The translations under genes were made by a program, and so were the position numbers. Of a stretch of 64,000 nt of DNA, positions 21,716 through 43,450 are shown one piece after another. The stretch's first letter is position 1. Each line of letters begins with the position of its first letter. Under the pieces are notes generated by a model, which worked only from the letters and a program-made list of their open reading frames with translations, had not been told where the DNA came from and made no database searches. Where the stretch lies: the NCBI RefSeq assembly GCF_048403405.1, contig NZ_CP183129.1. The stretch is one strand, 5' to 3'. This DNA comes from Escherichia coli (GTDB lineage Bacteria > Pseudomonadota > Gammaproteobacteria > Enterobacterales > Enterobacteriaceae).

Positions 21716-21974
21716 CCACCACTATTTCATTAAACAGGGTTATCCAGACATGGCGGCACACAAAAATATCTCCGGGAAAAACCCCCTCTCTGACGAAGAC
21801 ATTTTGCAGGCGGTTTACCGGGTATGTTTCAGCCCGTCCGGTGAAATCAACCGGGATGGCGTGGATGCGCTGATTACAACACTGGATCGCCGTATCAGTG
21901 ATCTATTGGATGAGATTATCCATTTTTGTGAGTTTCAGCAGAGCGCGTCGCACTGGCAGCGCGTACTTCACTGA
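21705..21974 (+). CDS. Small ORF (74-89 aa) paralogous to an N-terminal segment of TssC
   Basis: GVDALITTLDRRISDLLDEIIHFCEFQQSASHWQRV aligns with downstream TssC AVDSMIADIDERISRQMDVIIHAPAFQQVESFWRSL (17 of 36 identical); GTG at 21705 or ATG at 21750. Confidence 0.5.
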   Translation: MGNNHHYFIKQGYPDMAAHKNISGKNPLSDEDILQAVYRVCFSPSGEINRDGVDALITTLDRRISDLLDEIIHFCEFQQSASHWQRVLH

Positions 21975-30754: not shown

Positions 30755-33556
30755 ATGATCCAGATTGATCTTCCCACGCTGGTAAAACGGCTTAACCTGT
30801 TCTCCCGCCAGGCGCTGGAGATGGCCGCCTCTGAATGTATGAGCCAGCAGGCAGCGGAAATTACCGTCAGCCATGTGCTTATTCAGATGCTCGCCATGCC
30901 ACGCAGCGACCTGCGGGTTATTACCCGCCAGGGCGATATTGGCATGGAAGAGTTGCGCCAGGCGCTGACGGTGGAGAACTACACAACTGCCCGTTCTGCG
31001 GACAGCTACCCGGCATTTTCCCCGATGCTGGTTGAGTGGCTGAAAGAGGGCTGGCTGCTGGCGTCGGCTGAGATGCAGCACAGCGAATTGCGTGGCGGCG
31101 TGTTGCTGCTGGCCCTGCTGCATTCGCCGCTGCGTTATATACCGCCTGCTGCCGCCCGGTTGTTGACCGGCATTAACCGTGACCGTCTGCAACAGGACTT
31201 TGTACAGTGGACACAGGAGTCGGCGGAATCAGTCGTGCCGGATGCAGACGGTAAAGTCGCAGGCACACTGACGGACGCTGCTGACACCCTGCTTGCCCGC
31301 TACGCCAAAAACATGACCGCAGACGCCCGTAACGGCAGGCTTGACCCGGTACTGTGCCGCGACCACGAAATCGACCTGATGATCGACATTCTCTGCCGCC
31401 GCCGCAAGAACAACCCGGTGGTGGTGGGCGAAGCAGGCGTGGGTAAAAGTGCCTTAATCGAAGGGCTGGCGCTGCGCATCGTGGCAGGCCAGGTGCCGGA
31501 CAAACTGAAAAACACCGATATCATGACCCTTGACCTAGGCGCATTGCAGGCCGGGGCGTCGGTGAAGGGCGAATTCGAAAAACGCTTCAAGGGGCTGATG
31601 GCGGAGGTCATTTCCTCTCCGGTGCCGGTCATTCTGTTTATTGACGAAGCACATACCCTGATTGGCGCGGGCAACCAGCAGGGCGGGCTGGATATCTCCA
31701 ACCTGCTCAAACCGGCGCTGGCGCGCGGCGAACTGAAAACCATCGCCGCCACCACCTGGAGCGAATACAAAAAATACTTCGAGAAAGATGCCGCCCTGTC
31801 GCGCCGCTTCCAGCTGGTGAAGGTCAGCGAACCCAACGCCGCCGAAGCCACCATTATTCTGCGTGGTCTGTCGGCGGTCTATGAACAGTCTCACGGCGTG
31901 CTGATTGATGATGACGCCTTGCAGGCCGCAGCAACGCTGAGCGAACGTTATCTCTCCGGGCGTCAGTTGCCGGACAAAGCCATTGATGTGCTGGATACCG
32001 CCTGCGCCCGCGTCGCCATTAACCTTTCCTCGCCGCCGAAGCAAATCTCGGCGCTGACCACTCTGAGCCACCAGCAGGAGGCGGAAATTCGCCAGCTTGA
32101 GCGCGAGCTTCGCATCGGGCTGCGTACCAACACCTCACGGATGACCGAGGTGCTGGTGCAGTACGATGAAACGCTGACGGCGCTGGATGAACTGGAAGCG
32201 GCCTGGCATCAGCAGCAGGCGCTGGTCCGGGAGATTATCGCGCTGCGCCAGCAGTTGCTGGGCGTGGCAGAAGACGATGCGGCGTCGTTGCCGGACGCAG
32301 ATGCCGCGGAGGATACGCCGCCAGAGTCAGAGTCAGAGTCAGAGTCAGAGTCAGAGTCAGAGTCAGAGTCAGAACAGGATAATACCGGTGCCGTACCGGC
32401 TGATGAGGCCGACAGAGAACAGCCGGAAGAGACCGCTGAAACAGTTTCCCCGGTACAGCGGCTGGCCCAGCTCACTGCCGAACTGGACGCCCTGCATAAC
32501 GACCGGTTGCTGGTCTCCCCGCACGTCGATAAAAAACAGATTGCGGCGGTGATTGCCGAATGGACCGGCGTGCCGCTCAACCGCCTGTCGCAGAATGAAA
32601 TGTCGGTCATCACCGACCTGCCGAAATTGCTGGGCGACACCATCAAAGGCCAAGACCTGGCGATTGCCAGCCTGCATAAGCATCTACTGACCGCACGCGC
32701 CGACCTGCGTCTTCCGGGACGCCCGCTCGGTGCGTTCCTGCTGGCTGGCCCCAGCGGTGTGGGTAAAACCGAAACCGTCCTGCAACTGGCAGAGCTGCTC
32801 TACGGCGGTCGCCAGTACCTGACCACCATCAATATGTCCGAATTCCAGGAGAAACACACCGTCTCGCGGCTGATTGGTTCGCCTCCGGGCTACGTTGGCT
32901 ACGGTGAAGGCGGCGTACTGACCGAAGCGATTCGCCAGAAACCCTACTCGGTAGTACTGCTCGATGAAGTGGAAAAAGCGCACCCGGATGTGCTCAACCT
33001 GTTCTACCAGTCGTTCGATAAGGGCGAAATGGCAGACGGTGAAGGCCGCCTGATTGACTGCAAAAATATCGTCTTCTTCCTGACGTCCAACCTCGGCTAC
33101 CAGGTAATAGTCGAGCACGCCGATGACCCGGAAACCATGCAGGAAGAACTGTATCCGGTGCTGGCCGACTTCTTCAAACCTGCCCTGCTGGCGCGTATGG
33201 AAGTGGTGCCGTATCTGCCGCTGTCGAAAGAGACGCTCGCCACCATTATCGCCGGAAAACTGGCCCGTCTGGATAACGTGCTGCGCAGTCGCTTTGGTGC
33301 AGAAGTGGTCATTGAACCGGAAGTGACGGACGAAATCATGAGCCGCGTCACCCGCGCGGAAAACGGCGCGAGGATGCTGGAATCGGTCATCGATGGCGAC
33401 ATGCTACCGCCGCTCTCGCTGCTGCTGTTGCAGAAAATGGCGGCTAACACGGCGATTGCCCGGATTCGGTTGTCGGCGGTGGACGACGCATTTACGGCAG
33501 ACGTGGAAGATGCTCAGAACGACGAGTCCGTCACAAAGGATGAAACGGTTTTATGA
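30755..33556 (+). CDS. clpV: T6SS AAA+ ATPase ClpV (TssH)
   Basis: ORF 30641..33556; start at ATG 30755 (MIQIDLPTLVKRL); two Walker A motifs (GEAGVGKSA, GPSGVGKTE). Confidence 0.9.
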   Translation: MIQIDLPTLVKRLNLFSRQALEMAASECMSQQAAEITVSHVLIQMLAMPRSDLRVITRQGDIGMEELRQALTVENYTTARSADSYPAFSPMLVEWLKEGWLLASAEMQHSELRGGVLLLALLHSPLRYIPPAAARLLTGINRDRLQQDFVQWTQESAESVVPDADGKVAGTLTDAADTLLARYAKNMTADARNGRLDPVLCRDHEIDLMIDILCRRRKNNPVVVGEAGVGKSALIEGLALRIVAGQVPDKLKNTDIMTLDLGALQAGASVKGEFEKRFKGLMAEVISSPVPVILFIDEAHTLIGAGNQQGGLDISNLLKPALARGELKTIAATTWSEYKKYFEKDAALSRRFQLVKVSEPNAAEATIILRGLSAVYEQSHGVLIDDDALQAAATLSERYLSGRQLPDKAIDVLDTACARVAINLSSPPKQISALTTLSHQQEAEIRQLERELRIGLRTNTSRMTEVLVQYDETLTALDELEAAWHQQQALVREIIALRQQLLGVAEDDAASLPDADAAEDTPPESESESESESESESESEQDNTGAVPADEADREQPEETAETVSPVQRLAQLTAELDALHNDRLLVSPHVDKKQIAAVIAEWTGVPLNRLSQNEMSVITDLPKLLGDTIKGQDLAIASLHKHLLTARADLRLPGRPLGAFLLAGPSGVGKTETVLQLAELLYGGRQYLTTINMSEFQEKHTVSRLIGSPPGYVGYGEGGVLTEAIRQKPYSVVLLDEVEKAHPDVLNLFYQSFDKGEMADGEGRLIDCKNIVFFLTSNLGYQVIVEHADDPETMQEELYPVLADFFKPALLARMEVVPYLPLSKETLATIIAGKLARLDNVLRSRFGAEVVIEPEVTDEIMSRVTRAENGARMLESVIDGDMLPPLSLLLLQKMAANTAIARIRLSAVDDAFTADVEDAQNDESVTKDETVL
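32322..32369 (+). repeat. Hexanucleotide microsatellite (CAGAGT)x8 inside clpV, encoding (ES)n
   Basis: Eight perfect tandem CAGAGT units; in frame (CCA GAG TCA GAG ...) giving PESESESESESESESE. Confidence 0.95.
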
Positions 33557-34296
33557 GCAGGTTGCGCGTTTTCCGGCAGACAGGATGGTTTATCGCGGGC
33601 CTGATGACGGGCTTACCCGCCACTGCCGCGCCCGCAGAAACATCGTCAATGGCCGGTGTGGCGGTCGCCGTCGCCACCACGACCCCGCCGGATGCGACAG
33701 CCACGTCACAGGCCATGCAGTCCTGTCGGCGGGAGTCCGCGGCGCTGGAGCGGCTTGACTGCTATGACCGCCTGCTGGCACCGCTGTCCCCGTCAGGGTT
33801 TGACGGGGCGCTGGTCAAAGCCGGTTTTGTGGGCGAGGCCTGGACCCGCGCCACAGAGCAGGAAAAACGTCGCGAGGGCAACACCACAGAACTGCTGGTG
33901 ACGCAGGTGCCGGGGGAGCGCCCGACGGTGGTGATAACCACCCCGGCTATCGGCCATGTTCCGCCGCGCCCGGTGCTGATGTTCAGTTGCGTGGACAATA
34001 TCACCCGGATGCAGGTGGCGCTGATGCACCCTCTGGATGTCCATGATATCGCCGTCACTCTGAATGCCGACAGCCGGGCATTGCGTAGCCACTGGTTTGT
34101 GCGCGAGAACGGCACCCTGCTGGAGTCCAGCCGGGGGCTGTCCGGGATTGATGAAATTAAGCAACTGTTCGGCGCAAAAACGCTGACAGTGGATACCGGC
34201 GCAGATAACGCCGCAGGAAAGCTGACCTTTAACATTGACGGGCTGGCAAGGGCGATTGCCCCCCTGCGCGTTGCCTGCCACTGGGCGGGAGAATAA
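33553..34296 (+). CDS. Secreted T6SS-associated protein, VasI-like by position (name from recollection of the Vibrio cholerae cluster)
   Basis: 247 aa with signal peptide; ATGA overlap with clpV stop; sits between clpV and tssA where vasI lies in V. cholerae. Confidence 0.55.
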   Translation: MSRLRVFRQTGWFIAGLMTGLPATAAPAETSSMAGVAVAVATTTPPDATATSQAMQSCRRESAALERLDCYDRLLAPLSPSGFDGALVKAGFVGEAWTRATEQEKRREGNTTELLVTQVPGERPTVVITTPAIGHVPPRPVLMFSCVDNITRMQVALMHPLDVHDIAVTLNADSRALRSHWFVRENGTLLESSRGLSGIDEIKQLFGAKTLTVDTGADNAAGKLTFNIDGLARAIAPLRVACHWAGE

Positions 34297-34300
34297 AAAT

Positions 34301-35713
34301 ATGGCAATGGACTTACGCGATCCGAATGTCTGGATAACGCACCTGCTGGAAAACCTGCCGGAAGAAAAACTGGCATCGGCGCTGAAAGATGACAACCCGG
34401 ACTGGGAGTATATCGACGGCGAAATCGTCAAACTGGGATCTCTGGCCCACAGTCAACTGGATATCCCGGAACTCCAGCGCCGGGGGCTGGTCATTCTGGC
34501 TTCGGAGAGTAAGGACTTTCGTCTGCTGGCGCATCTGCTGAGAACCCTGCAACACGCCGGTGATCCTCATCTCGCATTGCGCCTGCTGGCGCTGTATGTG
34601 GAGCATTACTGGTCGGTGGCTGCGCCGCAGAATATGGCACATAAAAAACGCTTTGCCAGCCAGGTCATTAAACGCTTCGAAACAGGTATTGAAGGCTTTT
34701 CACAGAACGCCGCCACAGCGCAGCGCGACGCGCTGTCAGGGGAACTGGCGAAACTGGCGCAGTGCTGGCAGTCACATAACGCCCCGGAACTGGCACTGGC
34801 TACCGATGATCTTTTTGCCCTGTACCAGCGTGCGTTTAATCGTGCGGCACCGGCTCCTGCCCCCACTCCGGCGGCCTCCGATAGTTCACGACAGACCACC
34901 GCCACGTCTGAAAGCGGCGTGACGCAACCCAGTGCTCCGGCTCCCCAAATCGCCATCGACAGTCACGACGACAAAGCCTGGCGCGACACGCTGTTAAAAG
35001 TGGCGGCTATTTTATGTGAACGCCAGCCGGACTCGCCGCAGGGCTATCGCCTGCGCCGCCATGCCCTGTGGCAATCCATCACCAGTACACCCCAGGCGGA
35101 AAGCGATGGACGTACCCCATTGGCTGCGGTCTCTGCCGATATGGTGGCGGATTACCAGTCCCGGCTTGCCAGCGCGGATATGGCGCTGTGGCAGCAGGTT
35201 GAGAAAAGCGTATTGCTGGCTCCTTACTGGCTGGACGGTCACTGTCTTTCTGCACAGACGGCACTGCGTCTGGGTTACAAACAGGTGGCAGACACCATCC
35301 GCGATGAGGTCATCCGCTTCCTTGAGCGTCTGCCCCAGCTTACCGGGCTGCTGTTTAATGACCGCACACCGTTTCTCAGTGAGCAGACGAAACAATGGCT
35401 GGCAGCTTCGCCCGACGGCAAAGTTGCACCGGTTGCGCAAATCGGTGAGGAATCGCAGGCAGCCAGAGCCTGTTTTGCTGGGCAGGGTCTGGAGGCGGCG
35501 CTGCGATATCTGGACATGCTACCCGAAGGCGATCCCCGCAATCAGTTTCACCGCCAGTACCTTGCCGCACAGTTGACGGAGGAGGCGGGGCTGATACAGC
35601 TTGCGCAGCAACAGTACCGGATGTTGTTGATGATAGGGAGTCAGATGATGGTGTCTGACTGGGAGCCATCATTACTTACGCAGCTTGAACAAAAATTCAC
35701 GGCAGAACAATAA
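34301..35713 (+). CDS. tssA: T6SS protein TssA (ImpA_N family)
   Basis: ORF 34235..35713; start at ATG 34301 (MAMDLRDPNVWITHLLENL); immediately upstream of tssM. Confidence 0.8.
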   Translation: MAMDLRDPNVWITHLLENLPEEKLASALKDDNPDWEYIDGEIVKLGSLAHSQLDIPELQRRGLVILASESKDFRLLAHLLRTLQHAGDPHLALRLLALYVEHYWSVAAPQNMAHKKRFASQVIKRFETGIEGFSQNAATAQRDALSGELAKLAQCWQSHNAPELALATDDLFALYQRAFNRAAPAPAPTPAASDSSRQTTATSESGVTQPSAPAPQIAIDSHDDKAWRDTLLKVAAILCERQPDSPQGYRLRRHALWQSITSTPQAESDGRTPLAAVSADMVADYQSRLASADMALWQQVEKSVLLAPYWLDGHCLSAQTALRLGYKQVADTIRDEVIRFLERLPQLTGLLFNDRTPFLSEQTKQWLAASPDGKVAPVAQIGEESQAARACFAGQGLEAALRYLDMLPEGDPRNQFHRQYLAAQLTEEAGLIQLAQQQYRMLLMIGSQMMVSDWEPSLLTQLEQKFTAEQ

Positions 35714-35731
35714 AAGAGAACAGGAGTTTTT

Positions 35732-38700
35732 GTGTTCAGATTACCAACACCCCGACTACTCAGCGGACTCAAATCAGCCCTACGCCCGGCGATGCCCCGG
35801 TTTAAAGTCTCCGCTTTCTGGCTGCTGATACTGGCGTGGATTTTTCTGCTGGTATGGATCTGGTGGAAAGGCCCGACGTGGACGCTGTATGAAGAACAGT
35901 GGCTCAAACCACTGGCGAACCGCTGGCTGGCAACGGCGGCATGGGGGATTATCGCCCTAGTGTGGCTTACCGTCCGGATGATGAAGCGCCTGCAACAGCT
36001 TGAAAAAATGCAAAAGCAGCAGCGCGAGGAGGCCATTGATCCGCTCAGTGTGGAGCTGAACGCCCAGCAGCGTTACCTTGACCGCTGGCTGCTGCGCCTG
36101 CAACGCCATCTCGACAACCGCCGTTTCCTGTGGCAGTTGCCGTGGTATATGGTCATCGGCCCGGCGGGCAGTGGCAAAACGACACTGCTGCGCGAGGGTT
36201 TTCCGTCCGACATTATTTATGCCCCGGAGGGCGCACGCGGCGCAGAACAACGCCTGTACCTCACGCCCCATGTCGGTAAACAGGCGGTGATCTTTGATAT
36301 CGACGGCACACTCTGCGCTCCCGCTGATGCGGATATCCTGCATCGCCGTCTGTGGGAACATGCCCTCGGCTGGCTGAAAGAAAAGCGCGCGCGCCAGCCG
36401 CTGAACGGGATTATTCTGACACTCGATTTACCCGATCTGCTTACCGCAGACAAACGCCGCCGCGAACATCTGTTACAGACGCTGCGCAGCCGCTTGCAGG
36501 ATATACGCCAGCATCTTCACTGCCAGTTACCGGTTTACGTGGTACTCACCCGGCTTGATTTATTGCAGGGTTTTGCCGCCCTGTTCCAGTCACTGAACAG
36601 ACAGGATCGCGATGCAATTCTAGGGGTCACGTTCACCCGCCGCGCCCATGAAAATGATGACTGGCGAACAGAGTTGAATGCTTTCTGGCAGACATGGGTG
36701 GATCGAATGAACCTAGCGTTGCCGGATCTGATGGTCGCTCAGACTCACACCCGCGCGTCTTTATTTAGTTTTTCCCGCCAGATGCAGGGAAGCCGTGAAC
36801 CACTGGTGTCACTGCTTGAGGGTCTGCTTGACGGCGAAAATATGAACGTGATGCTGCGTGGCGTCTATCTCACCTCTTCGCTTCAGCGCGGACAGATGGA
36901 TGATATTTTCACCCAGTCTGCCGCCCGCCAATACCGGCTGGGCAATAACCCACTGGCGTCCTGGCCTCTGGTGGACACCGCACCCTATTTCACCCGTAGC
37001 CTGTTCCCGCAGGCATTACTCGCAGAGCCTAATCTGGCAACAGAAAGCCGCACCTGGCTGATGCGTTCCCGTCGCCGCCTGACGGTTTTCTCTACCACAG
37101 GAGGCGTGGCGGCACTGCTGCTCATCACCGGCTGGCATCACTATTACAACGGTAACTATCAGTCCGGCATCACCGTGCTTAAGCAGGCAAAAGCCTTTAT
37201 GGATGTACCGCCTCCGCTGGGGGAAGATGATTACGGCAACCTGCAACTGCCGCTGCTGAACCCGGTACGCGATGCCACGCTGGCCTATGGCGACTGGGGC
37301 GACCGCAGCCGTCTGGCCGATATGGGACTGTACCAGGGACGGCGTATCGGGCCTTATGTGGAACAAACCTATCTGCAACTGCTGGAGCAGCGTTACCTGC
37401 CTTCGCTGTTTAACGGGCTGGTCAAAGCGATGAACGCCGCGCCGCCGGAGAGTGAGGAAAAACTCGCCGTGCTGCGTGTGATGCGAATGCTGGAGGACAA
37501 AAGCGGACGCAATAATGAGGTGGTGAAGCAGTATATGGCAAAACGCTGGAGCGAAAAATTCCACGGCCAGCGCGATATCCAGGCACAACTGATGTCCCAT
37601 CTTGACTACGCGCTGGCTCATACTGACTGGCATGCAGAGCGTCAGGCGGGCGACGGTGATGCCATCAGCCGCTGGACGCCATATGACAAGCCTGTTGCGA
37701 CAGCACAGAAAGAACTGAGCAAACTGCCTGTCTACCAGCGAGTTTACCAGAGCCTGAAAACGCGGGCGCTGGGCGTTCTTCCTGCCGACCTCAATCTGCG
37801 TGACCAGGTAGGGCCAACTTTTGACCAGGTATTTACATCTGCCGATGATAACAAACTGGTTGTTCCACAGTTTCTTACCCGTTACGGCCTGCAAAGCTAT
37901 TTTGTAAAACAGCGCGATGAACTGGTTGAACTGACGGCGATGGATTCCTGGGTACTCAACCTCACCCGCAGCGTGAAATACAGTGACGCCGACCGCGCGG
38001 AAATCCAGCGCCAGTTGACCGAGCAGTATATCAGCGACTACACCGCCACCTGGCGGGCCGGGATGGACAATCTGAATATCCGCAATTTTGAGTCCATCGG
38101 ACAACTGACCGGGGCGCTGGAGCAGGTTATCAGCGGCGACCAGCCTTTGCAGCGGGCGCTGACCGTGCTGCGTGACAACACACAGCCAGGCGTCTTTTCT
38201 GAAAAACTCTCTGCCAAAGAGCGGGATGAGACCCTGGCAGAGCCGGATTACCAGTTACTCACCCGCCTCGGGCATGAATTCGCCCCGGAAAACAGTACCC
38301 TGACAGTACAGAAAGACAAAGAAAGCACGATGCAGGCCGTATACCAGCAGCTCACCGAGTTACACCGCTACCTGCTGGCAATCCAGAACGCGCCTGTACC
38401 AGGGAAATCGGCGCTGAAAGCCGTGCAGTTAAGGCTTGATCAGAACAGCAGCGATCCAATATTCGCCACCCGCCAGATGGCAAAAACACTGCCTGCTCCG
38501 CTCAACCGCTGGGTAGGCAGGCTGGCTGACCAGGCCTGGCATGTGGTGATGGTGGAAGCCGTTCACTATATGGAAGTGGACTGGCGCGACAGCGTGGTGA
38601 AACCGTTTAACGAGCAACTGGCAAATAACTATCCGTTTAATCCACATTCTGCACAGGATGCCTCACTGGATGCCTTCGAACGATTCTTTAAACCAGATGG

Positions 38701-39256
38701 CATACTGGATACCTTCTACCAGCAGAACCTAAAGCTGTTTATCGACAATGACCTGAGTCTGGAGGATGGCGATAACAACGTCATTATTCGCGAAGATATT
38801 ATTGCGCAACTGGAAACCGCGCAGAAAATCCGTGACATATTCTTCAGCAAACAGAACGGTCTGGGAACATCCTTTGCCGTGGAAACGGTATCGCTTTCCG
38901 GCAACAAACGCCGCAGCGTACTGAACCTTGACGGTCAGTTAGTCGATTACAGCCAGGGCCGTAACTATACCGCCCATCTGGTCTGGCCTAACAATATGCG
39001 CGAAGGCAACGAAAGCAAACTGACGCTGGTTGGTGCCCGCGGCGGCGCACCGCGCAGTATCAGCTTCAGCGGGCCGTGGGCTCAGTTCCGCCTGTTCGGG
39101 GCCGGACAGCTGACCGGAGTACAGGATGGCAACTTTACCGTGCGCTTTAGTGTGGACGGTGGCGCAATGACCTACCGCGTGCATACCGACACGGAAGATA
39201 ACCCGTTCAGCGGTGGGTTATTCAGCCAGTTTGGCCTGTCAGACACACTGTACTGA
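35732..39256 (+). CDS. tssM: T6SS membrane complex protein TssM (IcmF)
   Basis: 1174 aa; N-terminal TM helices and Walker A (GPAGSGKTTLL). Confidence 0.9.
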   Translation: MFRLPTPRLLSGLKSALRPAMPRFKVSAFWLLILAWIFLLVWIWWKGPTWTLYEEQWLKPLANRWLATAAWGIIALVWLTVRMMKRLQQLEKMQKQQREEAIDPLSVELNAQQRYLDRWLLRLQRHLDNRRFLWQLPWYMVIGPAGSGKTTLLREGFPSDIIYAPEGARGAEQRLYLTPHVGKQAVIFDIDGTLCAPADADILHRRLWEHALGWLKEKRARQPLNGIILTLDLPDLLTADKRRREHLLQTLRSRLQDIRQHLHCQLPVYVVLTRLDLLQGFAALFQSLNRQDRDAILGVTFTRRAHENDDWRTELNAFWQTWVDRMNLALPDLMVAQTHTRASLFSFSRQMQGSREPLVSLLEGLLDGENMNVMLRGVYLTSSLQRGQMDDIFTQSAARQYRLGNNPLASWPLVDTAPYFTRSLFPQALLAEPNLATESRTWLMRSRRRLTVFSTTGGVAALLLITGWHHYYNGNYQSGITVLKQAKAFMDVPPPLGEDDYGNLQLPLLNPVRDATLAYGDWGDRSRLADMGLYQGRRIGPYVEQTYLQLLEQRYLPSLFNGLVKAMNAAPPESEEKLAVLRVMRMLEDKSGRNNEVVKQYMAKRWSEKFHGQRDIQAQLMSHLDYALAHTDWHAERQAGDGDAISRWTPYDKPVATAQKELSKLPVYQRVYQSLKTRALGVLPADLNLRDQVGPTFDQVFTSADDNKLVVPQFLTRYGLQSYFVKQRDELVELTAMDSWVLNLTRSVKYSDADRAEIQRQLTEQYISDYTATWRAGMDNLNIRNFESIGQLTGALEQVISGDQPLQRALTVLRDNTQPGVFSEKLSAKERDETLAEPDYQLLTRLGHEFAPENSTLTVQKDKESTMQAVYQQLTELHRYLLAIQNAPVPGKSALKAVQLRLDQNSSDPIFATRQMAKTLPAPLNRWVGRLADQAWHVVMVEAVHYMEVDWRDSVVKPFNEQLANNYPFNPHSAQDASLDAFERFFKPDGILDTFYQQNLKLFIDNDLSLEDGDNNVIIREDIIAQLETAQKIRDIFFSKQNGLGTSFAVETVSLSGNKRRSVLNLDGQLVDYSQGRNYTAHLVWPNNMREGNESKLTLVGARGGAPRSISFSGPWAQFRLFGAGQLTGVQDGNFTVRFSVDGGAMTYRVHTDTEDNPFSGGLFSQFGLSDTLY

Positions 39257-39266
39257 GGAGGCAGGG

Positions 39267-40619
39267 ATGAATAGTAACGGACTGACACAAACTATCGTTA
39301 CCGGCAGTGACCCGCGCGGGCTGCCGGAATTCAGCGCCATCCGCGAGGAAATAAACAAAGCCAGCCATCCGTCACAGCCTGAGCTGAACTGGAAACTGGT
39401 GGAGTCGCTGGCGCTGGCGATTTTTAAAGCCAACGGTGTGGATTTACACACCGCCACCTACTATACGCTTGCCCGGACACGGACACAGGGACTGGCGGGA
39501 TTCTGCGAAGGTGCGGAACTGCTGGCGGCAATGGTAAGCCACGACTGGGATAAATTCTGGCCGCAGGGCGGTCCGGCGCGTACTGAAATGCTGGACTGGT
39601 TTAACTCCCGAACCGGCAATATTCTGCGTCAGCAAATCTCCTTTGCGGAACCCGATCTGCCACTGATCTACCGCACAGAGCGGGCATTGCAGCTTATCTG
39701 CGACAAGCTTCAGCAGGTGGAGCTGAAGCGCGTTCCGCGCGTGGAGAATCTGCTCTATTTTATGCAGAACACGCGTAAGCGGCTTGAACCCCAGCCGAAG
39801 AGTAACGTTGAAAACGCCGTACAGACCACGGTTAGAACACTGATTTATGCCCCGGAAACAACGGCTTCCTCCACGCCAGAAGCGGTAGTGCCTCCCCTGC
39901 CCGACCTGCCTGAGATGAAAGTAGAAGTGCGCAGTCTGTCAGAGAATCCCCCACAGGCCAGTGTGATGAAGCAAGGCAGTACGGTAAGAGGGTTTATCAC
40001 GGGGATCGCCTGTTCAGTGGCTGTCGCCTCAGCATTGTGGTGGTGGCAGGTCTATCCGGTGCAACAGCAACTGTTACAGGTTAACGACACCGCGCAGGGC
40101 GCAGCAACGGTGTGGATGGCCTCACCTGAACTAGAAAACTATGAGCGCAGGCTACAACAGCTTCTTGGCGTCTCCCCGGTACAACCGCTGGAAACCGGGA
40201 TGCAGATGATGCGTGTTGCCGACAGTCGCTGGCCGGAAAGCCTGCAGCAGCAGCAGGCCTCGACACATTGGAATGAAGCACTCAAAACCCGCGCACAGAG
40301 TAGCCCGCAGTTGCGTGGCTGGTTGCAGACCCGTCAGGACTTACATGCTTTTGCAGATCTCGTGATGCGGCGCGAGAAAGAGGGACTAACCCTTTCCTAT
40401 ATCAAAAATGTCATCTGGCAGGCGGAGCGGGGACTGGGGCAGGAAACACCCGTTGAGTCTCTGTTGACGCAGTACCAGGATGCCCGTGCGCAGAAGCAGA
40501 ATATAGATGCGCTGGAAAAACAAATTAATGAGCGACTCGAAGGCGTGTTAATCCGCTGGCTGCTGCTGAAGAATAACGTCATGCCAGAGGCGGCAACCGG
40601 GACCACGGCCGAAAAATAA
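39267..40619 (+). CDS. ImpA_N-domain membrane protein, VasL/TagA-like
   Basis: ORF 39213..40619; start at ATG 39267 with GAGGAGG upstream; ImpA_N-like N-terminus (GLPEFSAIREEINKA), one TM helix (ITGIACSVAVASALWWW), periplasmic C-terminus. Confidence 0.65.
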   Translation: MNSNGLTQTIVTGSDPRGLPEFSAIREEINKASHPSQPELNWKLVESLALAIFKANGVDLHTATYYTLARTRTQGLAGFCEGAELLAAMVSHDWDKFWPQGGPARTEMLDWFNSRTGNILRQQISFAEPDLPLIYRTERALQLICDKLQQVELKRVPRVENLLYFMQNTRKRLEPQPKSNVENAVQTTVRTLIYAPETTASSTPEAVVPPLPDLPEMKVEVRSLSENPPQASVMKQGSTVRGFITGIACSVAVASALWWWQVYPVQQQLLQVNDTAQGAATVWMASPELENYERRLQQLLGVSPVQPLETGMQMMRVADSRWPESLQQQQASTHWNEALKTRAQSSPQLRGWLQTRQDLHAFADLVMRREKEGLTLSYIKNVIWQAERGLGQETPVESLLTQYQDARAQKQNIDALEKQINERLEGVLIRWLLLKNNVMPEAATGTTAEK

Positions 40620-40642
40620 TTATTTAATTAAAGGAGATTATC

Positions 40643-41125
40643 ATGGCAAATATGAGTTATTTATCTTTGAGTGGAGAGACACAAGGGCTGATTTCAGCAG
40701 GTTGCTCAACGCTTGATTCTGTCGGAAACAAAGCACAGCCAGAACATAAAGATCAGATCATGGTTTATGCGTTAATGCATTCCATCTCAAGAAGTCAAAA
40801 TGTCAATCATCATGAATTAATTATCACCAAACCGGTTGATAAATCCTCACCATTGCTGGCAAAAGCACTTAGTGACAATGAAAAAATGGTAACATGTGAA
40901 TTTATACTCTACCGAACCAGTAAAGCGGGTATTTACCAGCCTTATTATAAAATAAACCTGTCAAAAGCCCGAATATCAAGTATTGATTTTGTCACACCGC
41001 ATGCTGTCCTGGAAAAAGAACTGGAGCCACAGGAGAGAATTGCCTTTATTTATGAAGATATTTCCTGGGAGCATACGTTAGCCGGTACGAATGCAATGAG
41101 TAAATGGCAGGATCGTGTACAGTAA
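40643..41125 (+). CDS. Second Hcp-family protein (Hcp2)
   Basis: 160 aa; Hcp-like profile (ELIITKPVDKSSPLLAKALSDNEKM...ISWEH); AAGGAG RBS; last T6SS-type gene of the plus-strand operon. Confidence 0.75.
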   Translation: MANMSYLSLSGETQGLISAGCSTLDSVGNKAQPEHKDQIMVYALMHSISRSQNVNHHELIITKPVDKSSPLLAKALSDNEKMVTCEFILYRTSKAGIYQPYYKINLSKARISSIDFVTPHAVLEKELEPQERIAFIYEDISWEHTLAGTNAMSKWQDRVQ

Positions 41126-41168
41126 TTTACTGTAATAACATAATAAATTACTATTGCGGAGAGATATA

Positions 41169-42083
41169 ATGGCTGGTTTAAGGAATAATAACAACACACA
41201 GAATGCACAGTGGGCTGATTATGTGGGTGACATTCTTCGGGGGGCTCAACCGATAAACCAGCTAGTACCTCAGCACCCTTATCTTAACGACGTCCCACTC
41301 ATTGATGAATTAAGGCGTCAGAACACTCATCATGTTATTCTCTTGACACTTGATGTTGCAAAAAAAATACTCAGCTCAATAACATCATTTGATTACATTC
41401 ATTTTATCACTACACATCCTTCAGGTATAAAAGATACACTCGCTTGGTTAGTTAACGCGGGTAAATTAATGACTGAGTTTGATGGAAATGGGAAAATTAT
41501 ATTTAACTTTAATACCTTAAAGTATACAAAAGCAAGTTACTTTGAAATACTTGGAGAGAAATATATAAAAATTACAACATCCAGCCCCTGGCTTTTAGAA
41601 AAGCTCGGTAAATATATTTTCTCTTCACGAGCGCCTCAAGTTCTGGAACTCGCTATTGGCTGGCGAGGAGCTTTATCTGAATCAATAAAAGGAGTTAAGT
41701 TCTGTATCTGGTTTTCAGTAGCCTGGAGAACCATAGAATTTATTATGAGTTCAGAGCGAGATCTGGTTAATTTTCTTGGTGATTTTTCAATGGATGTGGC
41801 CAAAGCAGTGATTGCAGGCGGTGTTGCAACTGCTATTGGAAGCCTGGCTTCTTTTGCCTGTCTTAGTTTTGGCCTTCCAGTAATTCTTGTAGGAGGAGCA
41901 ATTTTACTTACAGGGATAGTGTGTACAGTTGTTTTAAATGAAATCGATGCTCAATACCATTTATCAGAAAAATTAAAAGATGCAATTAGAGATGGACTAA
42001 AACGGCAACAGGAACTTGATAAATGGAAAAGGGAAAACATGACTCCATTTATGTATGTTCTTAACACTTCCCCCGTGATATGA
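41169..42083 (+). CDS. Hypothetical membrane protein with C-terminal glycine-zipper helical hairpin; candidate Hcp2-dependent effector
   Basis: ORF 41154..42083; ATG 41169; C-terminal AKAVIAGGVATAIGSLASFACLSFGLPVILVGGAILLTGIVCTVVL; visibly AT-rich; 43 bp after hcp2. Confidence 0.45.
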   Translation: MAGLRNNNNTQNAQWADYVGDILRGAQPINQLVPQHPYLNDVPLIDELRRQNTHHVILLTLDVAKKILSSITSFDYIHFITTHPSGIKDTLAWLVNAGKLMTEFDGNGKIIFNFNTLKYTKASYFEILGEKYIKITTSSPWLLEKLGKYIFSSRAPQVLELAIGWRGALSESIKGVKFCIWFSVAWRTIEFIMSSERDLVNFLGDFSMDVAKAVIAGGVATAIGSLASFACLSFGLPVILVGGAILLTGIVCTVVLNEIDAQYHLSEKLKDAIRDGLKRQQELDKWKRENMTPFMYVLNTSPVI

Positions 42084-42247
42084 GGATTAACTATGCGTTT
42101 ACATGTTAAATTGAAAGAGTTTTTTTCGATGTTTTTTATAGCCATATTATTTTTCCCTGCATTCAATGCTTCTTTATTTTTTACCGGAATTAGGTGATGC
42201 TGCCAACTTACTGATTTAGTGTATGATGGTGTTTTTGAGGTGCTCCA

Positions 42248-42523
42248 GTGGCTTCTGTTTCTATCAGCTGTCCCTCCTGTTCAGCTACTGACGGGGTGGT
42301 GCGTAACGGCAAAAGCACCGCCGGACATCAGCGCTATCTCTGCTCTCACTGCCGTAAAACATGGCAACTGCAGTTCACTTACACCGCTTCTCAACCCGGT
42401 ACGCACCAGAAAATCATTGATATGGCCATGAATGGCGTTGGATGCCGGGCAACCGCCCGCATTATGGGCGTTGGCCTCAACACGATTTTCCGCCATTTAA
42501 AAAACTCAGGCCGCAGTCGGTAA
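42248..42523 (+). CDS. insA: IS1 InsA
   Basis: 91 aa [30 protein letters not shown]... Confidence 0.95.
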
Positions 42524-42945
42524 CCTCGCGCATACAGCCGGGCAGTGACGTCATCGTCTGCGCGGAAATGGACGAACAGTGGGGATACGTCGGGGCTAAA
42601 TCGCGCCAGCGCTGGCTGTTTTACGCGTATGACAGGCTCCGGAAGACGGTTGTTGCGCACGTATTCGGTGAACGCACTCTGGCCACACTGGAGCGTCTTC
42701 TAAGCCTGCTGTCGGCCTTTGAGGTCGTGGTATGGATGACGGATGGCTGGCCGCTGTATGAATCCCGCCTGAAGGGAAAGCTGCACGTAATCAGCAAGCG
42801 TTACACTCAGCGAATTGAGCGGCATAACCTGAATCTGAGACAACATCTGGCAAGGCTGGGACGGAAGTCACTGTCGTTCTCAAAATCGGTGGAGCTGCAT
42901 GACAAGGTCATCGGGCATTATCTGAACATAAAACACTATCAGTAA
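42442..42945 (+). CDS. insB: IS1 InsB (expressed as InsAB' by -1 frameshift)
   Basis: 167 aa ORF overlapping insA 3' end in the -1 frame. Confidence 0.9.
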
Positions 42946-43450
42946 GTTGGAGTCATTACCCGGAATTAAACCTCTATATTCAATAATAAAAGGCTCCACG
43001 GAAATATTTTATGATTGGAGAATGTTGATTCTATGCTTCGGTTTCATATCGTTTTCCTTGTTAAATATTCATGTAATTTTACTAACAATAATAAAATCAT
43101 TCTTAATAAAAAAAACAAAGGTAATCAATTTCGCCACAGACATAACAATACAGCTAACTCTTATATTTTTACTAATAGCTATCGTAATAGCACCTTTAAT
43201 AGCTCCTTTTGTCACAGGATATGTCAATGCTAATTGTCACCCCTGCGGTAATAACACGGGGATTTTCCCAGGAGCAATCTATATTAAAAATGGCATAAAA
43301 TGTAATAATGAACATATTTCTCGCAAGGAAGATTAAGCAGTTAAATAATTAAATATTCTAAAACAAACAGTTTTTAACGCCGGATTCCATGTCCTTTCTT
43401 GCACTGTCTTTGTCAGGAACAATTTCTTATGCAAAGAATTTTGTATTATT

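What the first reader, a model, noticed from the sequence alone, without database searches (positions are those of the whole stretch)
33553..40619. Vibrio-like accessory gene order around tssM (vasI-like, tssA, tssM, vasL-like)
A signal-peptide protein precedes tssA, and an ImpA_N-domain membrane protein follows tssM. As I recall, this mirrors the Vibrio cholerae order (vasI, vasJ, vasK, vasL) minus vasH. Two ImpA_N proteins (TssA and the VasL-like) in one cluster suggests a cap or anchor role for the second.
Basis: partly seen in the sequence, partly recalled or inferred. Interest (0 to 1): 0.35.

Follow-up and report, generated by a model that had tools for sequence, protein, structure and literature searches.

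The report
Standard E. coli T6SS-1 vasI-tssA-tssM-tagA block

Summary
Window 33553-40619 holds four tightly packed + strand genes: vasI (247 aa, exported), tssA (470 aa, ImpA_N + VasJ), tssM (1144-1174 aa) and a 450-aa ImpA_N / hydrophobic helix / VasL-domain protein. A V. cholerae locus fetched here reads ClpV-VasH-VasI-VasJ-VasK-VasL, and each window protein best matches the gene in the same position. No vasH homologue lies anywhere in the window.

The window is the E. coli chromosome, and this is the aspV-associated T6SS cluster found in about 65% of complete E. coli genomes. RefSeq already names these genes vasI, tssA, tssM and 'VasL domain-containing protein'. The second ImpA_N protein is a TagA (TsmA, class B TssA-like) protein. 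Published work on EAEC and V. cholerae shows that TagA anchors and stops the sheath at its distal end.

One nuance: only the ImpA_N domain aligns with V. cholerae VasL. The whole protein aligns with EAEC TagA (28% identity, E 1e-51). So it is an E. coli-type TagA sitting in a Vibrio-type gene order.

VasI remains functionally unassigned. I model it as a Sec-exported, disulfide-bonded periplasmic beta-sandwich with an IalB-like fold.

The parts
33553..34296 (+). vasI: 247-aa exported T6SS-associated protein (VasI / VCA0118 family)
34301..35713 (+). tssA: 470-aa long-form TssA (class A / TsaC; ImpA_N + VasJ C-terminal domain), the sheath distal-end cap
   Evidence: It matches ImpA_N (2.5e-7) and T6SS_VasJ (5.9e-70), and TIGR03362 at 498 bits against a cut-off of 230. 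PDB sequence matches are 6g7b (1e-79) and 6riu, the TssA that is 100% identical to V. cholerae VasJ (5e-62). dN/dS is 0.10-0.24.
35732..39256 (+). tssM: inner-membrane core subunit (IcmF family). RefSeq starts it at CTG 35822 (1144 aa); GTG 35732 (1174 aa) is the more likely start
   Evidence: It matches TIGR03348 at 947 bits and four IcmF Pfam domains. It is 37% identical to V. cholerae VasK over 1193 aligned columns. It has three hydrophobic segments and the motif GPAGSGKT. An AGGAG sits 7 nt before GTG 35732, and the N-terminal extension is conserved in homologues.
39267..40619 (+). tagA ('VasL domain-containing protein'): 450-aa class B TssA-like protein built as ImpA_N (about 12-175), disordered linker (179-238), hydrophobic helix (about 243-263) and helical VasL domain (276-435)
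30755..33556 (+). tssH (clpV), the gene directly upstream. In V. cholerae vasH sits between it and vasI; here it overlaps vasI by 4 nt
   Evidence: RefSeq annotates it as tssH. It is 57% identical to V. cholerae ClpV. The junction sequence is shown.
40643..41125 (+). Orphan hcp immediately downstream of tagA (context, low G+C)
   Evidence: It matches Pfam T6SS_HCP and TIGR03344. Its G+C is 0.39. An Hcp gene follows VasL in most of the closest loci from other enterobacteria.

Best explanation
The region is the distal part of one operon of the widespread aspV-associated E. coli T6SS cluster. This cluster is in the same phylogenetic group as the V. cholerae system. It encodes four products.

1. 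VasI is exported by Sec to the periplasm, where it folds into a disulfide-bonded beta-sandwich. It acts as a non-essential accessory that improves delivery.
2. TssA is the long form. It primes sheath-tube polymerisation and rides on the growing distal end as a cap.
3. TssM is the inner-membrane core of the TssJLM membrane complex.
4. TagA has a cytoplasmic ImpA_N domain tethered through a flexible linker to a hydrophobic membrane helix and a helical VasL domain. When the TssA-capped sheath reaches the opposite membrane, TagA binds TssA, stops polymerisation and clamps the extended sheath until it fires.

Shown here: domain content, architecture, homology, synteny and purifying selection. Inferred from published work on EAEC and V. 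cholerae homologues: the TssA-TagA interaction, distal-end localisation and the stop-and-hold activity.
For: - Identity of the locus: the window is 100% identical to E. coli MS 69-1, where RefSeq names the genes vasI, tssA, tssM and VasL domain-containing protein.
- Positional orthology with V. cholerae VasI/J/K/L is shown.
- The TagA candidate aligns over its full length with EAEC TagA.
- The architecture ImpA_N / linker / hydrophobic segment / VasL is conserved in 51 aligned homologues and in the AF2 model.
- dN/dS for tagA (0.10-0.18) is like that of tssA.
- The genes are tightly packed, with gaps from -4 to +23 nt and Shine-Dalgarno sites.
- Literature: TagA anchors or stops the sheath and partners with long TssA (PMC6745524; PMC7545191; PMC7896307). 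VCA0118 is dispensable for Hcp secretion but needed for full killing (PMC3166118).
Against: - No experiment in the literature I could search addresses this particular E. coli TagA. The EAEC 042 genome paper said there was no evidence that the aspV cluster is even expressed (PMC2808357).
- Identity to the characterised EAEC TagA is only 28%.
- Stietz et al. report that in V. cholerae termination does not depend on a distal TssA-TagA interaction. Schneider et al. propose that TagA may act by competing with TssA.
- The hydrophobic segment is borderline for a transmembrane helix (Kyte-Doolittle 1.56), and TagA is described as peripherally associated. The topology of the VasL domain is therefore unresolved.
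- The role of VasI is inferred only from export signals and fold.
Confidence: 0.85

Rival explanations
1. The second ImpA_N protein is a decaying duplicate of tssA with no function, as Zheng et al. 2011 suggested for VCA0121.
For: Deleting VCA0121 had no effect on Hcp secretion, amoeba killing or bacterial killing in V. cholerae V52 (PMC3166118). BLASTP between the window's TssA and the 450-aa protein is not significant (E 0.25).
Against: dN/dS is 0.10-0.18, the same as for tssA. The full-length architecture is conserved across Enterobacterales with invariant residues. The AF2 model is confident in both domains. The gene is present in 3501 of 5426 E. coli genomes. Later microscopy found clear sheath phenotypes for tagA mutants.
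Confidence: 0.03
2. TagA here is mainly a negative regulator. From the membrane it sequesters or competes with TssA, and acts together with TssM. This limits where and how often sheaths start, rather than clamping the distal end.
For: [quoted passage not shown] Stietz 2020 finds that termination does not depend on the distal TssA-TagA interaction and describes tripartite TssA-TssM-TagA control. The gene adjacency tssA-tssM-tagA is conserved in 49 of 80 loci.
Against: The window protein is full-length homologous to EAEC TagA. For that protein, distal capture and long residence of extended sheaths are reported. It shares only the ImpA_N domain with V. cholerae TagA.
Confidence: 0.1
3. VasI is a T6SS-delivered effector or a surface adhesin, not a periplasmic accessory (the proposal of Zheng et al. 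2011).
For: The VCA0118 mutant secretes Hcp and VgrG-1 normally but is avirulent to amoebae and kills E. coli less well.
Against: The N-terminal Sec-type signal and four invariant cysteines are conserved, which points to the periplasm. No adjacent immunity-like gene is present. The position between clpV and tssA is fixed in 49 of 80 loci, which is typical of machine parts and not of variable cargo. The fold resembles the IalB beta-sandwich family and shows no enzyme-like features.
Confidence: 0.1

Closest known systems
EAEC TagA (Sci-1 T6SS of E. coli 042 / 17-2; EC042_4550 by my recollection; ORF at NC_017626.1 4884070-4885437)
   Same: The architecture is the same: ImpA_N, linker, hydrophobic segment, VasL domain. 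The two align end to end (residues 12-438, 28% identity, E 1e-51). Both are encoded in a cluster with a long TssA.
   Different: The T6SS family and gene context differ. In Sci-1-type clusters tagA follows tssM-tssA-tssF-tssG-tssJ-tssE. Here it directly follows tssM. Sequence identity is low, and the window protein itself is untested.
V. cholerae VasL / TagA (VCA0121; 'TagAV', TsmA class)
   Same: The position is the same (directly after vasK/tssM) in the same overall gene order. The ImpA_N domains are homologous (31% over 138 aligned positions, E 3e-16; hhalign probability 99%). It also has a hydrophobic segment after a linker.
   Different: The C-terminal halves do not align. V. cholerae VasL does not match Pfam VasL PF12486 even at E<=1. 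Bernal et al. already separate 'TagA' from 'TagAV'. The V. cholerae cluster also has vasH between clpV and vasI.
V. cholerae large T6SS cluster VCA0107-0123 (vipA ... clpV, vasH, vasI, vasJ, vasK, vasL, vgrG3)
   Same: The order tssG-FHA-tssJ-tssK-tssL-clpV-...-vasI-tssA-tssM-tagA is collinear, with 27-57% identity gene by gene.
   Different: There is no sigma-54 activator VasH in the window. An hcp gene follows tagA, where V. cholerae has vgrG3-tsiV3. The vasH-less form is the commoner one among the Enterobacterales loci sampled (41 against 8).
Long-form TssA (A. hydrophila 6g7b/6g7c, V. cholerae 6riu)
   Same: The window TssA matches both over most of its length (E 1e-79 and 5e-62) and has the same ImpA_N + VasJ architecture.
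   Different: None of note. It is an ordinary member.

Membership tests
TagA / TsmA (class B TssA-like membrane anchor) | N-terminal ImpA_N domain (PF06812) | tested here: met
TagA / TsmA (class B TssA-like membrane anchor) | Hydrophobic membrane-association segment after the ImpA_N domain | tested here: met
   There is a single hydrophobic stretch at about 243-263 (Kyte-Doolittle 1.56 for a 19-mer, 2.25 for an 11-mer) within predicted helix 239-273. It is conserved in position in 51 homologues. Whether it spans the membrane or sits peripherally is not resolved.
TagA / TsmA (class B TssA-like membrane anchor) | C-terminal VasL domain (PF12486), E. coli TagA type | tested here: met
   E 6.6e-22, 78.5 bits against a cut-off of 27.3, residues 292-434. 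It aligns over its full length with EAEC 042 TagA.
TagA / TsmA (class B TssA-like membrane anchor) | Encoded in a T6SS cluster together with a long-form TssA | tested here: met
   tssA with a VasJ C-terminal domain lies two genes upstream.
TagA / TsmA (class B TssA-like membrane anchor) | Binds TssA, localises to the distal sheath end, and stops and holds the sheath | not testable with these tools
   This is known only for the EAEC and V. cholerae homologues.
V. cholerae-type TagA ('TagAV') C-terminal domain | C-terminal half homologous to VCA0121 | tested here: not met
   BLASTP and hhalign align only residues about 12-151. VCA0121 does not match PF12486.
Long-form TssA (class A / TsaC) | ImpA_N plus T6SS_VasJ domains; TIGR03362 equivalog above its cut-off | tested here: met
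   (498 bits against 230). PDB relatives are 6g7b and 6riu.
VasI (PF11319 / TIGR03360) | Profile match above the curated cut-off | tested here: met
   178.6 bits against 26.5 (Pfam) and 256 bits against 124 (NCBIfam).
VasI (PF11319 / TIGR03360) | Sec signal peptide (exported protein) | tested here: inconclusive
   All 32 homologues have a hydrophobic N-terminus by heuristic scoring, and 29 pass the stricter cut-off. All share four invariant Cys. No dedicated predictor or experiment was available.
TssM (TIGR03348) | Equivalog HMM above its cut-off; N-terminal TM segments; IcmF domains | tested here: met
   947 bits against 388. Four IcmF Pfam domains. Three hydrophobic segments.
V. cholerae-like T6SS gene order | clpV-(vasH)-vasI-tssA-tssM-tagA collinearity | tested here: met
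   Comparison with L085. The order holds in 49 of 80 other loci.
V. cholerae-like T6SS gene order | sigma-54 activator vasH between clpV and vasI | tested here: not met
   tssH and vasI overlap by 4 nt. No VasH homologue lies in the window.

The most novel reading that the evidence does not exclude
VasI, whose function is still unknown, may be a true periplasmic subunit or assembly factor of the group-1 T6SS membrane complex. It would be an IalB-like, disulfide-bonded beta-sandwich docking on the periplasmic part of TssM/TssJ or on peptidoglycan. That would explain why it always sits next to tssA-tssM, and why its loss impairs killing without affecting Hcp secretion.
Probability: 0.3. Interest if true: 0.4.

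Novelty: already known. Interest (0 to 1): 0.1.

Why it matters
It matters little as a discovery. The genes, their order and the anchor role of the second ImpA_N protein are in RefSeq annotation and in papers from 2018-2021.

Three points have practical value:
- The E. coli T6SS-1 TagA is of the EAEC type despite its Vibrio-like position. EAEC Sci-1 results are therefore the better guide for it than V. cholerae results.
- The Pfam name 'VasL' is misleading, because V. cholerae VasL does not match that family.
- VasI is the one member of the block that still lacks a mechanism, and the model made here gives a starting point.

Tried and rejected
- I looked for V. cholerae VasL among the 150 best representatives and named 20 of their clusters. 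All named ones were Enterobacterales. The genome scan kept only Enterobacterales in its best 80. I reached V. cholerae instead by rebuilding its TssA sequence from a PDB alignment.
- A paper search for VasI/DUF3121/PF11319 was swamped by the dermatology acronym VASI.
- Santin et al. 2018 is not held, and 'EC042_4550' is not found in the library. Equating the 042 ORF with that locus tag therefore rests on its position, its architecture and my memory.
- PDB sequence search found nothing for VasI. For TagA it found only ImpA_N matches.
- I considered and rejected the reading that the second ImpA_N gene is a pseudogene-like duplicate.
- The first attempt to scan ykfM coordinates failed because the window carries an IS1 there.
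Full report
**What is there.** ORF listing and a megablast against complete E. coli genomes show that window 33000-41000 is 100% identical to E. coli MS 69-1. It is also found in 3506 of 5426 genomes. RefSeq annotation of that genome places the region inside a full T6SS cluster next to tRNA-Asp (aspV) and dnaQ:
- On the minus strand: hcp, vgrG, Rhs.
- On the plus strand: tssB, tssC, tssE, tssF, tssG, tagH, tssJ, tssK, tssL, tssH, vasI, tssA, tssM, 'VasL domain-containing protein', hcp.

The finding's coordinates run exactly from the vasI start to the stop of the VasL-domain gene.

**Check of the observation.** Pfam and NCBIfam confirm all four genes.
- VasI matches PF11319 (1.3e-52) and TIGR03360.
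- TssA matches ImpA_N plus T6SS_VasJ, and TIGR03362 at 498 bits.
- TssM matches TIGR03348 at 947 bits.
- The 450-aa protein matches ImpA_N (5.6e-20) and VasL PF12486 (6.6e-22).

The protein is 450 aa, not 451. Its ATG follows GAGGAGG.

The 450-aa protein has one hydrophobic stretch at about 243-263. VasI has a signal-peptide-like N-terminus. All 32 aligned homologues have a hydrophobic N-terminus, 29 pass a stricter hydrophobicity cut-off, and all keep four invariant cysteines. I had no dedicated signal-peptide predictor, so export is inferred.

The genes are packed as one operon. tssH and vasI overlap by 4 nt, and the other gaps are 4, 18, 10 and 23 nt.

**Comparison with Vibrio.** I rebuilt the V. 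cholerae TssA sequence from a PDB alignment and found the exact V. cholerae protein. I then fetched its contig, which reads TssG-FHA-TssJ-TssK-TssL-ClpV-VasH(sigma-54)-VasI-VasJ-VasK-VasL-VgrG3.

BLASTP pairs each window protein with the gene in the same position:

| Window protein | V. cholerae partner | Identity | E-value |
|---|---|---|---|
| VasI | VasI | 31% | 4e-19 |
| TssA | VasJ | 32% | 3e-66 |
| TssM | VasK | 37% | 0 |
| 450-aa protein | VasL | 31% (residues 17-151 only) | 3e-16 |

No VasH homologue lies in the window. So 'V. cholerae order minus vasH' is correct.

Among 80 VasL-encoding loci from other species, the gene orders were:

| Gene order | Loci |
|---|---|
| Same as the window | 37 |
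| Same, with an hcp between tssM and vasL | 4 |
| Vibrio form with vasH (Lonsdalea, Brenneria, Hafnia, Enterobacter soli) | 8 |
| EAEC Sci-1-like: tssM-tssA-tssF-tssG-...-vasL | 26 |
| Other | 5 |

**What the second ImpA_N protein is.** The literature already covers it. Proteins with ImpA_N, a membrane segment and a VasL domain were named TagA. [quoted passage not shown] V. cholerae VCA0121 is the class B representative (PMC6745524). [quoted passage not shown] Long TssA proteins usually co-occur with TagA anchors in phylogenetic groups 1 and 2 (PMC7896307).

I located the EAEC 042 tagA ORF downstream of sci-1. The window protein aligns with it over residues 12-438 (28% identity, E 1e-51). By contrast, V. 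cholerae VasL shares only the ImpA_N region with the window protein or its family profile, and it does not match Pfam 'VasL' at all. This agrees with Bernal et al., who separate 'TagA' from 'TagAV'. The window protein is thus an E. coli-type TagA in a Vibrio-type position.

**Structure and selection.** The AF2 model of TagA has mean pLDDT 83. It shows four parts:
- a helical N-domain, residues 12-175;
- a disordered linker, 179-238;
- a long helix, 239-273, carrying the hydrophobic stretch;
- a helical C-domain, 276-435.

**Verdict.** The aspV T6SS was described in the EAEC 042 genome paper in 2010. tagA is present in 65% of complete E. coli genomes. The confidence of 0.85 applies to the identity and architecture of the genes. 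The stop-and-hold mechanism for this specific protein is inferred by homology.

Noticed in passing
window 42193-42955: An IS1 element (763 bp) is inserted about 100 nt into ykfM relative to E. coli MS 69-1. Apart from this, window 12997-61776 is 99.99% identical to that genome.
   Followed up: yes
window 35732-35822: RefSeq starts tssM at a CTG (35822, 1144 aa). GTG 35732 has an AGGAG 7 nt upstream. The extra 30 residues (MFRLPTPRL...PRFK) align with the N-termini of V. cholerae VasK and another TssM, so the annotated start is probably 30 codons too short.
   Followed up: partly
window 40643-42083: The orphan hcp and the following 304-aa protein (hydrophobic segments at about 213-261, no Pfam or NCBIfam match) have G+C 0.38-0.39 against 0.56-0.64 for the T6SS core. 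This looks like a foreign Hcp-linked cargo or immunity module.
   Followed up: no
L085:15022-16284 (V. cholerae VasL): The protein that gives Pfam family 'VasL' (PF12486) its name does not match that family even at E<=1. Only its ImpA_N domain is detected.
   Followed up: partly
L088:29070-30437 (E. coli 042, NC_017626.1 4884070-4885437): The EAEC tagA gene is an intact 455-aa ORF, but RefSeq annotates it as three partial pseudogene fragments (ImpA_N, POTRA, VasL).
   Followed up: partly
window 33553-40619 compared with L010, L013, L005: The cluster is mosaic. Against a Pseudocitrobacter locus, VasI is 95% identical but TssA is 72% and TagA 75%, which suggests a recombination breakpoint near the vasI/tssA junction. 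Within E. coli, tagA falls into two allele classes: >=95% identity (2914 genomes) and about 75% (553 genomes).
   Followed up: partly
L087:15659-16813 (E. coli 042): A second, shorter (384 aa) VasL-domain gene sits among IS fragments and a tssB remnant downstream of the aai/Sci-2 cluster. It is probably a relic of another T6SS.
   Followed up: no
window 21750-21974: A small hypothetical ORF (74 aa) is annotated between tssB and tssC in the matching RefSeq genome. I did not examine it.
   Followed up: no
window 13071-17573 and 12001-14000: An Rhs core protein gene lies downstream of vgrG on the minus strand. G+C drops sharply (0.42) at its 3' end, as expected for a variable toxin tip plus immunity gene.
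   Followed up: no
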